The position numbers were made by a program, and so were the translations under genes. A stretch of 64,000 bases of DNA from Klebsiella phage vB_Kpn_K54_rec1. The notes under the pieces were generated by a model, which saw only the letters and a program-made list of their open reading frames with translations, was not told the origin of the DNA and did not search any database. Shown piece after piece: positions 24,170-26,711 of the stretch; the first letter of the stretch is position 1; the number at the start of each line of letters is the position of its first letter. The stretch is taken from sequence record PQ569687.1. One strand, written 5' to 3'.

Positions 24170-25849
24170 TTACAGTTGAGCGGCTGCGCGTTCACGAATC
24201 GTTGTCAGATCTTCATCGACAATAAGTTTACCGTTGTAGAACACACGACGCAGTTCGTTATCGTCAGACTGTACATCTTCAAGCTGACAATTGTCAATCA
24301 GTTCTAACTGACCGAACATGTTGCGAACAACTTTGAGGAAACCTTTCGCAGATTTCTTACTGAGGTCGGTCTTAGGCTCTTTGACAACCATGATTTGCTG
24401 ACCATCAATAACAGCGCCAGTTGCTTTCACAGCCATACCAAGTGAATCACGGGTTGTATACTGGGTGGTAAAGGAACCAACACCGTACACGATATTGCTG
24501 GATGCAAAGCCTTTATCTTTCAGACGTTCAAAGATGTCTTTTGCACGAGCAACAGTGATGGAATCACCATAGATCAGACCAATATGACTATCAAGAACCT
24601 TATAGCCCTTGGAATTAACTTCACCACCGAAAATATCCCATAAACATTGGACTGCACCTACAGCTTCATGGTAAGGAACTTCATCTGTTTCATCAATAAC
24701 ATCAAAACCTGAAGACTGCTTGACACGATAGAACTTACCAAGAACCTGAACAAGTTCATATCCGGCTTCCGCATTGGCATCATAAGCTTCTTCAAAGCTT
24801 GCATAATCACCGCCATCTGTGTAGTAACCAGCAATGATATGCTCAGGGACACCGGAGTCCGGGCGGAATACAACACGTCCATCGCGAGCCATGATTTCCT
24901 GTTTCAGGATCGCTGCTGCTTTGGTGATAATCGCCCAGAAGTCATAACTGTCTGCCACGTAGGAAACAAAACCTTTAGGGAAAATTTCCGTAATGTAGCG
25001 TTTCATGAATTCAACTTCAGCCAAGAAACGTGATTCGTCCAGAGTCAGTTCCGGGTGTTCACCTTGTAGGCGACCGACGATAAATCCGATGTTCGTGGTT
25101 GCAACAGAGTGTTCAGATGCAGGAATAGAACCAGCAACGAACTTGCCTTTCATGTTGTAATAACGACGAGCATACAGAATCGCTGGGATAGTGTCTGTAC
25201 CCATAGAGTTGATCAGTTGACCAAATTCGCTCTGTGCTGCGTCGTGAGTACCAGCTTCACCGCGATAGGCGAAGCAGTGGTTCTGGAATGCAACATGGTC
25301 GTTGTTATCACAGGTCTCAGCAGCCCATTTTTCAGACAGCTTGCGATACTGCCAGAACGTCGTTGCAGTTGTGATAGTTTTCCAGGTTTCTGCGGAGATC
25401 ACACTTTCCAGAAAGTTAGGCAACCAGTAAAAATCCGGGTGCGTATTCTGGATTGTAAACATTGGGACCTGAACCGGAGAAAGCGTTCCTTCTGGAAGAG
25501 CACGGATTTCCAGAGGAAGATAACCGAGATCATGAAGAGCCTCAAAGCCCCAAGTTTCTACCATGCCAATGCCGATGCTGGAGTCGCAAACCTCACGATA
25601 ATCAGCAACCGCTTCTTCTTTCGGGAGGTTGAAGAAGTTATTGTTGAACATGTCGATAAGGAACCACTTAATAAATCCCTGAAGGCCAGCAAACATGACA
25701 CGCTGGTCGTTATCAGCGAAGTGGATGAAGTGCTTCGCATTACGAGGGGTCATGTTATCCTGAACAATTTCAGAACGTTTATCATACATGGAGATGTGTG
25801 AAGGTTTGTAAAAGTCAGCGAACAGGATAGGACTTTCTTGATTAAGCAT
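24170..25849 (-). CDS. nadV: nicotinamide phosphoribosyltransferase family protein (NadV/NAMPT-like; candidate Namat of a NARP1 pathway), 559 aa
   Basis: AAGGAG then ATG at 25849. N-terminal ILFADFYKPSHISMY parallels the NAMPT N-terminal motif ILLNTDSYKVTHYKQY. Length and multiple conserved blocks match. Confidence 0.8.
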   Translation of the reverse strand: MLNQESPILFADFYKPSHISMYDKRSEIVQDNMTPRNAKHFIHFADNDQRVMFAGLQGFIKWFLIDMFNNNFFNLPKEEAVADYREVCDSSIGIGMVETWGFEALHDLGYLPLEIRALPEGTLSPVQVPMFTIQNTHPDFYWLPNFLESVISAETWKTITTATTFWQYRKLSEKWAAETCDNNDHVAFQNHCFAYRGEAGTHDAAQSEFGQLINSMGTDTIPAILYARRYYNMKGKFVAGSIPASEHSVATTNIGFIVGRLQGEHPELTLDESRFLAEVEFMKRYITEIFPKGFVSYVADSYDFWAIITKAAAILKQEIMARDGRVVFRPDSGVPEHIIAGYYTDGGDYASFEEAYDANAEAGYELVQVLGKFYRVKQSSGFDVIDETDEVPYHEAVGAVQCLWDIFGGEVNSKGYKVLDSHIGLIYGDSITVARAKDIFERLKDKGFASSNIVYGVGSFTTQYTTRDSLGMAVKATGAVIDGQQIMVVKEPKTDLSKKSAKGFLKVVRNMFGQLELIDNCQLEDVQSDDNELRRVFYNGKLIVDEDLTTIRERAAAQL

Positions 25850-25910
25850 GTTTTGTTTCTCCTTTGTTTGTTTAATAGGGCGATTGTACGCCCACTTATT
25901 CATTTGTCAA

Positions 25911-26711
25911 TTAAAAGTTTTCGGTCCAGTCGTGGTATGCGTAGATTTCATCAACGCCGCCTTCGTAGATAACTTCTTTACCGAAGGAAAAGATGCCGTG
26001 AGTTACGTAAAGAATAACACGTTTTGCACCATTTTCTTTCAAGGATTGTGCAAGAGCGATGAAGGTGCGCCCACCATCACAGATATCATCCACGATAACA
26101 CACTCTCGGTCTTTCACATCACCGAAGAATGTTGTGCCAGTGATCTGTCCTGTGACAACATTACGGACCTTGCCTGCTTCAACTAAAGGTAGTCGCATAC
26201 GGTCTGCCACCTTCTGTGCTTTTTTACGAGCGCCAGCGTCGGGAGCAACAATGGTGACATCTTTTCCAGCCAGTTGGTCATGGAATTCAGCAACTAATAT
26301 GTCTTGTCCACGAATTTTTACATTATCAAGCAAAGCAGCAGAAACATCGCTATGTGGGTCATCAACAATAACTTCATCAAAACCGAGTGAATTCACAATT
26401 CTTGCGAATACTTTGATTGACAATGCTTCGCCAGGTTGCATGATGCGGTCTTGACGTGCATATGGGATGTATGGAAGGTTCAGTGTGAATTTAGCATTTG
26501 TATGAAGATTCTCAAGTCGAGAACATGCATCAACTAACATGCACAAGGCCATAACATCTGAAGAATTTTTAATTTTTGCAGTTATTTCCACAAAACCAAT
26601 GCTACCCTTCGGCGCATGTTGGAGATCAATTTTCACGTTTTCCTCGCCACCCTTGAAGGTAGAGTGGTCAACAGGCACTACTAGGTTGTTCAGACGAAGT
26701 TCTAAACTCAT
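25911..26711 (-). CDS. ribose-phosphate pyrophosphokinase (PRPP synthetase) family protein (candidate Adps of NARP1), 266 aa
   Basis: PRPP synthetase motifs YARQDR and VIVDDICDGGRT. Adjacent and co-oriented with the NadV-like gene. Confidence 0.8.
   Translation of the reverse strand: MSLELRLNNLVVPVDHSTFKGGEENVKIDLQHAPKGSIGFVEITAKIKNSSDVMALCMLVDACSRLENLHTNAKFTLNLPYIPYARQDRIMQPGEALSIKVFARIVNSLGFDEVIVDDPHSDVSAALLDNVKIRGQDILVAEFHDQLAGKDVTIVAPDAGARKKAQKVADRMRLPLVEAGKVRNVVTGQITGTTFFGDVKDRECVIVDDICDGGRTFIALAQSLKENGAKRVILYVTHGIFSFGKEVIYEGGVDEIYAYHDWTENF

What the first reader, a model, noticed from the sequence alone, without database searches (positions are those of the whole stretch)
24170..26711. 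Adjacent NadV-like and PRPP-synthetase-like genes form a NARP1-type NAD+ reconstitution (anti-immunity) pair
A nicotinamide phosphoribosyltransferase homolog and a ribose-phosphate pyrophosphokinase homolog sit tail-to-head on the minus strand, away from the nucleotide-metabolism block. This pair (Adps plus Namat) has been described as a phage pathway that rebuilds NAD+ from ADP-ribose and nicotinamide after NAD+-depleting defences such as Thoeris, DSR, SEFIR and Sir2-HerA. The window also carries a Sir2-like gene and a NADAR gene, so NAD/ADP-ribose biology appears to be a major theme of this phage.
Basis: partly seen in the sequence, partly recalled or inferred. Interest (0 to 1): 0.7.

Follow-up and report, generated by a model that had tools for sequence, protein, structure and literature searches.

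The report
Known phage NAD+-rebuilding gene pair (NARP1)

Summary
Both genes are present on the minus strand. The PRPP-synthetase-like gene lies at 25911-26711 (266 aa). The Nampt-like gene lies at 24170-25849, or 25903 if the longest ORF is taken. The window is 100% identical to Klebsiella phage vB_Kpl_K54lambda1.1.1 / vB_Kpn_K54_rec2-6 (Vequintavirinae, Mydovirus).

The Prs-like protein groups with experimentally validated Adps enzymes, not with canonical Prs. A validated-Adps HMM scores it 205 bits against 88 for E. coli Prs. It has the Bas63-identical PP loop DDICDGGRTF and the catalytic Lys181, and it lacks the C-terminal regulatory/filament module.

The Nampt-like protein has an intact catalytic core. 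It also carries the published Namat adenine-clamp motif (GSFTTQYTTRD), which Nampt lacks.

Both genes are under purifying selection (dN/dS 0.04-0.26). Orthologues in KB57, KNP2, BIS47 and Mydo are already listed in the founding NARP1 paper's tables.

Corrections:
- Namat most likely starts at Met19, so the spacer is 61 nt, not 7.
- Loss of ribose-5-phosphate-site residues is not the right discriminator, because validated Adps keeps them.

No Macro-domain or RyR accessory gene sits in the operon. The Sir2-like and NADAR genes are real.

Outside the window, the genome also encodes NadR-like and PnuC-like (NARP3-type) genes.

Verdict: interpretation supported, already known, low interest.

The parts
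25911..26711 (-). adps: ADP-ribose pyrophosphate synthetase (PRPS-like), 266 aa
   Evidence: ORF; Pfam, PHROG and NCBIfam hits. Identity is 41% to Bas63 Adps and 40% to ICP1 Adps. A validated-Adps HMM scores it 205 bits against 88 for E. coli Prs. Residues F19, R86, H120, D158, K181, D208, D209 and D212 are present, and the PP loop is DDICDGGRTF. The C-terminal alpha11-alpha12 module is absent. dN/dS is 0.05-0.09.
24170..25849 (-). namat: nicotinamide ADP-ribose transferase (Nampt-like), 559 aa from Met19; the longest ORF extends to 25903 (577 aa)
   Evidence: ORF. Identity is 43-47% to the Bas63, SPbetaL1, FADO and ICP1 Namats. PDB scores are 414 bits to SPbetaL1 Namat (9w5x) against 177 to Xcc Nampt and 171 to human NAMPT. 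Catalytic core in 577-aa numbering: D30, Y32, F211, R214, D237, H265, R347, D349. SCH motif is G476-S-F-T-T-Q-Y-T-T-R-D486; SCL is K57-H58-F59. The protein is 99.6% identical to KB57 Namat, which Osterman lists as 'Adps-associated'.
25850..25910 (-). 61-nt adps-namat spacer. It holds a sigma70-like TTGACA (25910-25905), 16 nt, TACAAT (25888-25883). A hairpin at 25893-25878 carries the -10-like hexamer in its loop. The Shine-Dalgarno AAGGAG is at 25864-25859.
   Evidence: The spacer is identical in KB57 and KNP2. In SSE121 the sequence differs, but the TTGACA, a hairpin (GGGTGC-AAGAAT-GCACCC) and the SD are kept. Function as a promoter or RNA element is inferred only.
26720..26725 (-). Shine-Dalgarno AAGGAG of adps; the adps ATG (26711-26709) overlaps the stop of the upstream ORF (ATGA)
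27876..27904 (-). Putative sigma70-like promoter (TTGACA-17-GATAAT, 11 of 12) at the head of the leftward unit that contains ORFs 27635-27273 and 27289-26708, then adps and namat
   Evidence: It sits back to back with a + strand promoter-like site at 27908-27935, and GC skew changes sign here. This is a consensus match only.

Best explanation
The pair is a canonical two-gene NARP1 counter-defence module.

Proposed mechanism:
1. A host SIR2-, TIR- or SEFIR-type defence cleaves NAD+ into ADP-ribose and nicotinamide.
2. Adps (25911-26711) transfers the beta,gamma-pyrophosphate of ATP to the 1'' hydroxyl of the distal ribose of ADP-ribose, giving ADPR-pyrophosphate. Lys181 acts as the key catalytic residue. 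The DDICDGGRTF loop holds the ATP phosphates.
3. Namat (24170-25849) replaces that pyrophosphate with nicotinamide and regenerates NAD+ directly. It uses a Nampt-type catalytic core (Phe211, Arg214, Asp237, His265, Arg347, Asp349 in ORF numbering).
4. An adenine clamp selects ADPR-PP over PRPP. It consists of Phe478 and Tyr482 of GSFTTQYTTRD plus the Lys57-His58 loop of the partner subunit.

Shown here: gene order, family membership, motif and residue conservation, and purifying selection.

Inferred from characterised homologues (Bas63, SPbetaL1, FADO, ICP1): the two reactions and protection against Thoeris I, DSR1/2, SIR2-HerA and SEFIR.

Inferred from consensus matches only: early expression from sigma70-like promoters.
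For: - ORFs and domains are confirmed.
- In the reciprocal profile test, the validated-Adps HMM scores the window protein 205 bits and E. coli Prs 88. In leave-one-out runs the window protein (159-207 bits) outscores held-out ICP1 and Bas63.
- On the Prs model TIGR01251 the window protein scores 156 bits and validated Adps score 96-138, against 423 for E. coli Prs. All Prs equivalog models are far below cut-off.
- Adps residue map: F19, R86, H120, D158, K181, D208, D209 and D212 are conserved, and the PP loop is identical to Bas63.
- The C-terminal 36 or so residues of Prs are absent. These hold the filament contacts R301, R302, N305 and E307 and the allosteric SISAMF segment.
- The RF-loop basic residues are replaced.
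- Namat scores 414 bits to the SPbetaL1 Namat structure against 171-177 to Nampt structures.
- It shares two insertions with Bas63 Namat, the genetically validated enzyme.
- dN/dS is 0.04-0.26.
- The pair is conserved at the same locus across Mydovirus and Seunavirus.
- KB57, KNP2, BIS47 and Mydo orthologues are listed in Osterman's Tables S1/S2 as Namat-neighboured and 'Adps-associated'.
Against: - No biochemical or genetic data exist for this phage or its genus.
- Identity to validated enzymes is only 29-41% (Adps) and 43-47% (Namat).
- SCH position 5 is Thr rather than the usual aromatic residue.
- The SCL stacking position is His, rather than the Trp or Tyr seen in Bas63 and FADO.
- ICP1 Phe92 is Met here, as in Bas63.
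- Asp to Cys in the conserved HDF motif beside the nicotinamide-stacking Phe (HCF; conserved in all Mydovirus and Seunavirus orthologues).
- The Adps protein still passes the broad Prs subfamily threshold.
- SPbetaL1 Namat retains PRPP-dependent NMN synthesis in vitro, so a side activity cannot be excluded.
Confidence: 0.88

Rival explanations
1. Conventional salvage. The 266-aa protein is a streamlined PRPP synthetase and the 559-aa protein a true Nampt. Together they make NMN from ribose-5-phosphate, ATP and nicotinamide. The phage's own NadR-like NMN adenylyltransferase, or host NadR/PncC, then converts NMN to NAD+. This would be a NARP2-like route.
For: - The Prs-like protein passes TIGR01251 (156 bits against a cut-off of 113).
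- It keeps the acceptor residues shared with Prs.
- SPbetaL1 Namat can make NMN from PRPP in vitro.
- The same genome encodes a NadR-like NMNAT+RNK protein outside the window.
Against: - SPbetaL1 Adps yields no PRPP-pathway product, and Bas63 NARP1 works in a pncC nadR double mutant.
- The window protein groups with Adps, not Prs.
- The Namat clamp motif is present, whereas the NARP2 Nampt clade is defined by absence of Adps.
- Osterman found no phage with both NARP1 and NARP2.
Confidence: 0.06
2. The chemistry is NARP1, but the main role is housekeeping. The pair would recycle ADP-ribose and nicotinamide released by the phage's own NAD+-consuming enzymes (for example the Sir2-like protein), or by host turnover, to sustain replication rather than to counter immunity.
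For: - A Sir2-family gene and a NADAR gene are in the window.
- NARP1 homologues also occur in non-mobile bacterial regions, and a housekeeping role has been suggested there (PMC12774641).
Against: - In Bas63 the ADPR-PP intermediate appeared only when the defence system was present.
- Deletion had a phenotype only on defence-carrying hosts.
- The Sir2 and NADAR genes are unlinked and on the other strand.
- The two roles are not mutually exclusive.
Confidence: 0.05
3. Decaying or non-functional remnants of metabolic genes acquired from a host.
For: None beyond the unusual HCF substitution and the mosaic structure of adps.
Against: - Reading frames are intact in all relatives.
- dN/dS is 0.04-0.26.
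- All catalytic residues are kept.
- Ribosome-binding sites are strong.
Confidence: 0.01

Closest known systems
NARP1 of Escherichia phage Bas63 (JohannRWettstein) genes 79-80 (Osterman et al., 10.1101/2024.02.11.579819)
   Same: - Same gene order (adps then namat).
- Identical Adps PP loop DDICDGGRTF.
- Met at the ICP1-Phe92 position.
- Same two Namat insertions.
- SCL of the Lys-plus-next-residue type.
- 41% (Adps) and 43% (Namat) identity.
   Different: - Different phage family: Felixounavirus, 87 kb, against Mydovirus, 143 kb.
- The Bas63 SCL stacking residue is Trp; here it is His.
- SCH position 5 is Tyr in Bas63 and Thr here.
- Bas63 has genetic proof of function; this phage has none.
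NARP1 of Bacillus phage SPbetaL1 (biochemistry; Namat crystal structures 9w5w/9w5x, PMC12774641) and of Vibrio phage ICP1 (Adps structures, PMC13586617)
   Same: - Catalytic Lys: SPbetaL1 K162 and ICP1 K185 correspond to K181 here.
- Acceptor residues are shared.
- The C-terminal module is lost.
- Same Namat catalytic core and SCH signature.
   Different: - 29-40% (Adps) and 46-47% (Namat) identity.
- The SPbetaL1 PP loop is DDLSSFGGTF.
- SPbetaL1 Namat lacks the two insertions and uses Arg40 for stacking.
Orthologous pairs in Mydovirus and Seunavirus phages (KB57, KNP2, BIS47, Mydo, SSE121), already tabulated by Osterman et al.
   Same: - Same locus and same spacer.
- Namat is 99.6% identical to KB57.
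- Adps is 80-89% identical.
   Different: - The central part of adps (26000-26500) is only 65-80% identical to any relative.
- The upstream T5orf172 gene is shared with KNP2 but absent from KB57.
NARP1-AP (Adps, Adpp Macro phosphatase, Namat; 10.64898/2026.01.28.702374)
   Same: The core two enzymes.
   Different: No Macro-domain gene is in or next to the operon. A Macro-domain 'phosphatase' exists elsewhere in the genome, but its role is untested.
Canonical class I PRPP synthetase (E. coli Prs) and Nampt (Xcc, human) / NARP2 of KVP40
   Same: Same folds and same core chemistry.
   Different: - Prs models score 423 bits for E. coli Prs against 156 here.
- The allosteric/filament C-terminus is missing.
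- Nampt has GGALLQKVDRD where Namat has GSFTTQYTTRD.
- The NARP2 Nampt clade lacks an Adps partner.

Membership tests
NARP1 (system level) | Adps-type and Namat-type genes adjacent and co-oriented, adps first, in a phage genome | tested here: met
   61-nt spacer, both on the minus strand, in a Mydovirus genome.
NARP1 (system level) | Reconstitutes NAD+ from ADP-ribose, nicotinamide and ATP, and rescues the phage from NAD+-depleting defences | not testable with these tools
   Needs LC-MS with purified proteins and plaque assays with a deletion mutant.
Adps | PRPS-like two-domain fold | tested here: met
   Pribosyltran_N, Pribosyltran and Pribosyl_synth domains; aligned over its full length with Prs structures.
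Adps | Groups with validated Adps rather than with canonical Prs | tested here: met
   The validated-Adps HMM gives 205 bits against 88 for E. coli Prs, supported by leave-one-out controls. All Prs equivalog models are far below cut-off. No full phylogeny was built.
Adps | Loss of the C-terminal alpha11-alpha12 filament/allosteric module (called a defining signature in PMC13586617) | tested here: met
   The protein ends 13 residues after the conserved (V/I)D(E/H/K/Y) position. E. coli Prs continues for 49 residues, including R301, R302, N305, E307 and SISAMF.
Adps | Adps-type PP loop used for ATP donor binding | tested here: met
   D208-D-I-C-D-G-G-R-T-F217 is identical to Bas63. ICP1 has DDICDGAASF and E. 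coli Prs has DDMIDTGGTL.
Adps | Catalytic beta-hairpin Lys (ICP1 K185, SPbetaL1 K162) | tested here: met
   K181.
Adps | ADP-ribose adenine contacts (ICP1 Phe18', Arg87, Phe92) | tested here: inconclusive
   F19 and R86 are conserved. Position 92 is Met91, as in Bas63, and is deleted in SPbetaL1 and FADO, so this position is not family-wide.
Namat | Nampt-like catalytic core including the catalytic His | tested here: met
   D30, Y32, F211, R214, D237, A262, H265, R347, D349, G446, D447.
Namat | [quoted passage not shown] | tested here: met
   G476-S-F478-T-T480-Q-Y482-T-T-R-D486. Position 5 is Thr, where 'most often aromatic' is expected. Xcc Nampt has GGALLQKVDRD.
Namat | SCL loop with Arg, Lys or Tyr at the third position and a stacking residue | tested here: inconclusive
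   The sequence is TPR-N-A-K57-H58-F59. Lys is at the third position, as in Bas63 (K-W) and FADO (K-Y), but the next residue is His. Whether it stacks needs a structure.
Namat | Belongs to the Adps-associated clade of the Namat/Nampt tree | tested here: met
   The 99.6%-identical KB57 protein is labelled 'Adps-associated' in Osterman Table S2. The window protein has its own Adps neighbour.
Namat | Prefers ADPR-PP over PRPP | not testable with these tools
   Needs a competition assay.
NARP1-AP | Macro-domain ADPR-1''-phosphate phosphatase (Adpp) within the operon | tested here: not met
   No Macro hit in the flanking ORFs on the same strand. The only Macro protein found is about 75 kb away in the genome.
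NARP2 | Nampt of the Adps-free clade plus an Nmnat partner | tested here: not met
   An Adps is adjacent and the Namat clamp motif is present. See for the definition.
NARP3 | PnuC-like transporter plus NadR-like RNK-NMNAT | tested here: not met
   The pair under study has neither domain. Such genes do exist elsewhere in the genome, outside the window.

The most novel reading that the evidence does not exclude
The Mydovirus/Seunavirus lineage may stack several NAD+ routes in one genome. These would be NARP1 (in the window), a diverged and split NARP3-like pair (NadR-like and PnuC-like, 36-37% identical to the Bas28-type operon, separated by about 2 kb) and an unlinked Macro-domain phosphatase that could serve as Adpp. 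In addition, sister Seunaviruses carry an uncharacterised 177-aa gene (phrog_23621) wedged between adps and namat, which could be a new NARP1 accessory enzyme. If these genes work together, the lineage would be a natural example of layered, redundant NAD+ counter-defence. I did not find NARP1 + NARP3 co-occurrence discussed in the papers I searched.
Probability: 0.3. Interest if true: 0.45.

Novelty: already known. Interest (0 to 1): 0.2.

Why it matters
It confirms that this therapeutic-type Klebsiella myovirus should resist NAD+-depleting defences that yield ADP-ribose and nicotinamide, such as SIR2-HerA, type I Thoeris, DSR1/2 and SEFIR. With no Adpp in the operon, it may remain sensitive to aRES-type RES NADases, which occur in K. 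pneumoniae. That is useful for choosing or engineering phages but adds no new biology. The annotation 'ribose-phosphate pyrophosphokinase / nicotinamide phosphoribosyltransferase' in the deposited records should read Adps / Namat.

Tried and rejected
- I guessed BASEL accessions to reach Bas63. MZ501111, MZ501074, MZ501078, MZ501084 and MZ501085 were other phages; MZ501086 was correct.
- My recollection that Bas63 is an rV5-like relative of this phage was wrong. It is a Felixounavirus.
- A regex search for a NADAR motif found nothing. tblastn with the Bas62 YbiA-like protein located the gene.
- ORF 59968-60459 ('hydrolase') and ORF 60842-61915 ('nucleotidyltransferase') were tested as NADAR or NMNAT candidates. 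The first has no Pfam hit and the second is RlaP-like.
- A literature search for PDB 9ke8/9keo gave only noise. tblastn showed it is not from a phage in the collection, so it stays an unidentified Nampt homologue lacking the aromatic clamp.
- The tblastn against plasmids added nothing essential.
- The 4MG/GAP31 insert between adps and namat was tested as Adpp. It has no Pfam or PDB match and is unrelated to the K54 Macro protein.
- I did not run the large protein-database searches or structure predictions, because the classification was already settled by residue-level and profile tests. The ICP1 Adps structures are not in the PDB copy.
- The longest-ORF start of Namat (25903) was rejected in favour of Met19.
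Full report
**Observation**

The window holds two co-oriented minus-strand ORFs at the stated coordinates:
- 25911..26711, 266 aa
- 24170..25903, 577 aa

The first matches the PRPP-synthetase family: Pribosyltran_N, Pribosyltran and Pribosyl_synth domains, phrog_619 at E=4.9e-93, and TIGR01251 at 156 bits. The second matches the Nampt family: PF04095, phrog_448 at E=5.9e-195, and NF006629 at 482 bits.

The 3-kb region is 100% identical to Klebsiella phage vB_Kpl_K54lambda1.1.1 and to vB_Kpn_K54_rec2 to rec6. 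It is 91-93% identical to KB57, KNP2, BIS47 and Mydo, all Vequintavirinae of genus Mydovirus.

**Gene starts and junctions**

The first ATG of the long ORF (25903) has no Shine-Dalgarno. It lies in the spacer of a near-consensus TTGACA-16-TACAAT element at 25910-25883.

The ATG at 25849 is preceded by AAAGGAGAAACAAAAC. That is almost the same context as the adps start, AAAGGAGAAACAAAA. The deposited annotation, Osterman's table and the diverged SSE121 orthologue all start at this Met.

Namat is therefore most likely 559 aa (24170..25849) and the spacer is 61 nt.

The adps ATG overlaps the stop of an upstream ORF (ATGA). That ORF, at 26708..27289, encodes an HTH plus T5orf172 protein.

**Is the Prs-like protein an Adps?**

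Three papers define the family: the original NARP1 paper, the Namat crystal structures and the ICP1 Adps structures. I fetched these comparators:
- the experimentally characterised Adps of ICP1, Bas63, SPbetaL1 and FADO
- E. coli Prs

Identity to the window protein is 40%, 41%, 31% and 29% for the four Adps, and 30% for E. coli Prs.

Profile scores (bits):

| Model | Window protein | Validated Adps | E. coli Prs |
|---|---|---|---|
| HMM built from the four validated Adps | 205 | (training set) | 88 |
| Same HMM, leave-one-out runs | 159-207 | held-out ICP1 146, Bas63 148 | 78-97 |
| Prs model TIGR01251 | 156 | 96-138 | 423 |

Residue mapping shows the following:
- F19, R86, H120, D158, D208, D209 and D212 are conserved.
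- The catalytic Lys is K181, equivalent to ICP1 K185 and SPbetaL1 K162.
- The PP loop DDICDGGRTF is identical to Bas63. E. coli Prs has DDMIDTGGTL.

The protein ends 13 residues after the last conserved block. It therefore lacks the Prs C-terminus, which holds the filament contacts R301, R302, N305 and E307 and the allosteric SISAMF segment. The basic residues of the Prs RF loop are replaced. The structure paper calls this C-terminal loss a defining signature of Adps.

That is not diagnostic, because validated Adps keeps that surface and re-uses it for the distal ribose of ADP-ribose.

**Is the Nampt-like protein a Namat?**

It is 43-47% identical to the Bas63, SPbetaL1, FADO and ICP1 Namats. 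Against solved structures it scores 414 bits to SPbetaL1 Namat (9w5x/9w5w), 177 bits to Xanthomonas Nampt and 171 bits to human NAMPT.

All nicotinamide- and NMN-site residues are present. In ORF numbering they are D30, Y32, F211, R214, D237, H265, R347, D349, G446 and D447.

[quoted passage not shown] Sequences at this position compare as follows:
- window protein: GSFTTQYTTRD (F478, Y482)
- SPbetaL1 Namat: GSFTYQYNTRD
- Bas63 Namat: GSYTYQYMTRD
- Xcc Nampt: GGALLQKVDRD

The variable clamp loop reads TPRNAK57-H58-F59. It is of the Lys-then-stacker type described for Bas63, but with His where Bas63 has Trp and FADO has Tyr. I rate that feature inconclusive.

The protein shares two insertions with Bas63 Namat, one after HSVATTN and one after IIAGY. 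SPbetaL1, FADO and ICP1 lack them.

**Functional constraint and conservation**

Pairwise dN/dS against KB57, KNP2 and SSE121 is 0.05-0.09 for adps and 0.04-0.26 for namat. The higher namat values come from the two insertions. The pair occupies the same locus across Mydovirus and Seunavirus.

**Is it already known?**

Osterman's supplementary tables list the KB57, KNP2, BIS47 and Mydo proteins. The Prs-family entries are marked as having a Namat within ten genes, and the Namat entries are marked 'Adps-associated'. The window Namat is 99.6% identical to the KB57 entry. NARP1 is also a standard two-gene model in AntiDefenseFinder. The finding is therefore a correct recognition of a catalogued system.

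**Variants and rival pathways**

- NARP3 is a PnuC plus NadR-like pair and does not describe these two genes.
- NARP1-AP adds a Macro-domain phosphatase to the operon. NARP1 operons in some mycobacteriophages carry a RyR-domain glycosidase. None of the flanking same-strand ORFs has a Macro or RyR domain.
- NARP2 uses a Nampt from an Adps-free clade plus an Nmnat. That does not fit a gene with an adjacent Adps and the clamp motif.

**Context**

The pair lies just downstream of a divergent promoter-like region at about 27.88-27.94 kb, where GC skew changes sign. This is compatible with early expression but is only a consensus match.

The Sir2-like gene (32248..33024) and the NADAR gene (38270..38779) are real. 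They are unlinked and on the other strand.

**Additional observations**

1. The locus is mosaic:
   - 23500-26000 is KB57-like (99-100% identical).
   - 26000-26500, the centre of adps, is only 65-80% identical to either relative.
   - 26500-27700 is KNP2-like. It includes the T5orf172 gene, which KB57 lacks.
2. The spacer hairpin GGGCG-TACAAT-CGCCC has a counterpart with a different stem in SSE121, GGGTGC-AAGAAT-GCACCC. The folding z-scores are modest (-1.6 and -2.0).
3. Seunavirus relatives (4MG, GAP31, EC152, SPLA5a, KP13-16) carry an extra 177-aa gene between adps and namat. It belongs to phrog_23621 and has no Pfam or PDB match. The window has no copy.
4. Outside the window, the near-identical genome PQ569688.1 encodes three more NAD-related genes:
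   - a NadR-like NMNAT+RNK protein
   - a PnuC-family transporter; like the NadR-like protein, it is 36-37% identical to its counterpart in the Bas28 NARP3-type operon
   - a Macro-domain 'phosphatase'

   The NadR-like gene is conserved across the lineage.

**Verdict**

The system is already known, and its function here is inferred from homologues rather than shown.

Noticed in passing
window 26000-27700 (compare 23500-26000): The NARP1 locus is mosaic. namat and the spacer are 99-100% KB57-like. The centre of adps (26000-26500) is only 65-80% identical to KB57 or KNP2, so its donor is unknown; no phage record outside the K54 family has this Adps allele at 90% or more. 26500-27700 is KNP2-like.
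   Followed up: yes
window 26708-27289 (-) and 27273-27635 (-): Two HTH-type ORFs lie directly upstream of adps; the first overlaps the adps start (ATGA). ORF 26708-27289 combines an HTH with a T5orf172 nuclease-like domain (phrog_25806; the C-terminus matches endonuclease phrog_681). It is present in KNP2 but absent from KB57, so it is a possible mobile endonuclease next to the recombination tract.
   Followed up: partly
window 25878-25910 (-): A near-consensus sigma70-like promoter (TTGACA-16-TACAAT) sits between adps and namat, with the -10 hexamer in the loop of a 5-bp GC hairpin. SSE121 keeps the arrangement with a different stem (GGGTGC-AAGAAT-GCACCC). This may be an internal promoter or an RNA element that sets the Adps:Namat ratio.
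   Followed up: partly
window 24170-25849, Namat residues about 271-299 and 360-415 (ORF numbering): Two insertions are shared with Bas63 Namat and absent from SPbetaL1, FADO and ICP1. They are the fastest-evolving parts of the protein between the KB57 type and the KNP2/SSE121 type. Separately, the conserved HDF motif beside the nicotinamide-stacking Phe is HCF in all Mydovirus and Seunavirus orthologues.
   Followed up: partly
L017:2337-2870 (Escherichia phage 4MG gp257) and L018:2340-2873 (Cronobacter phage GAP31_181): Sister Seunaviruses have an extra 177-aa gene exactly between adps and namat, with its start overlapping the adps stop. It belongs to phrog_23621 (unknown function) and has no Pfam or PDB sequence match. 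It is unrelated to Macro or RyR accessory genes and absent from the window. It is a candidate new NARP1 accessory gene.
   Followed up: partly
outside the window: L015 (PQ569688.1) 35724-36812 and 38801-39508: The same phage genome encodes a NadR-like NMNAT+RNK protein without an HTH, and a PnuC-family transporter. These are the two NARP3 components. They are 36-37% identical to the Bas28 operon but lie about 2 kb apart. The NadR-like gene is conserved across Mydovirus and Seunavirus, so NARP1 and a NARP3-like pair co-occur in this lineage.
   Followed up: partly
outside the window: L015 (PQ569688.1) 12443-13054: A Macro-domain protein (PF01661 at 23 bits; phrog_335 'phosphatase' at E=3e-65) lies far from the NARP1 operon. 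It may be an unlinked ADPR-1''-phosphate phosphatase (Adpp-like), which would matter for aRES sensitivity.
   Followed up: no
window 32248-33024 (+): A Sir2-family protein (PF02146, 84 bits) is encoded immediately upstream of an ATP-dependent DNA ligase gene (33024-34328), on the opposite strand from NARP1. Its role is unknown.
   Followed up: partly
window 38270-38779 (+): A NADAR/YbiA-like protein (PF08719, 121 bits; 40% identical to the Bas62 YbiA-like protein) is followed by two HNH endonuclease ORFs.
   Followed up: partly
L005:27577-28434 (Bas62 JohannJBalmer): In Bas62 a 'putative phosphoribosyltransferase' is flanked by a macrodomain gene and a HAD-like gene. It has no detectable similarity to the window Adps (blastp E=4.3), so it is a different ADP-ribose-related cluster.
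   Followed up: no
OY979426.1 (vB_Kpl_K54lambda1.1.1) and other OY97xxxx records: The features listed under the match in these records (thymidylate kinase, HNH endonuclease, ATPase and others) do not correspond to the sequence. The annotation coordinates in these entries appear to be out of register.
   Followed up: no
L001:3976-5295 (Vibrio phage ICP1 2017_Dha_A): The annotated ICP1 Namat CDS (439 aa, 'hypothetical protein') starts at MGLQYF. It lacks the N-terminal 70 or so residues, including the DxY and SCL segments, so it is probably a mis-called start or a truncated allele. Its SCH ends in TCD rather than TRD.
   Followed up: no
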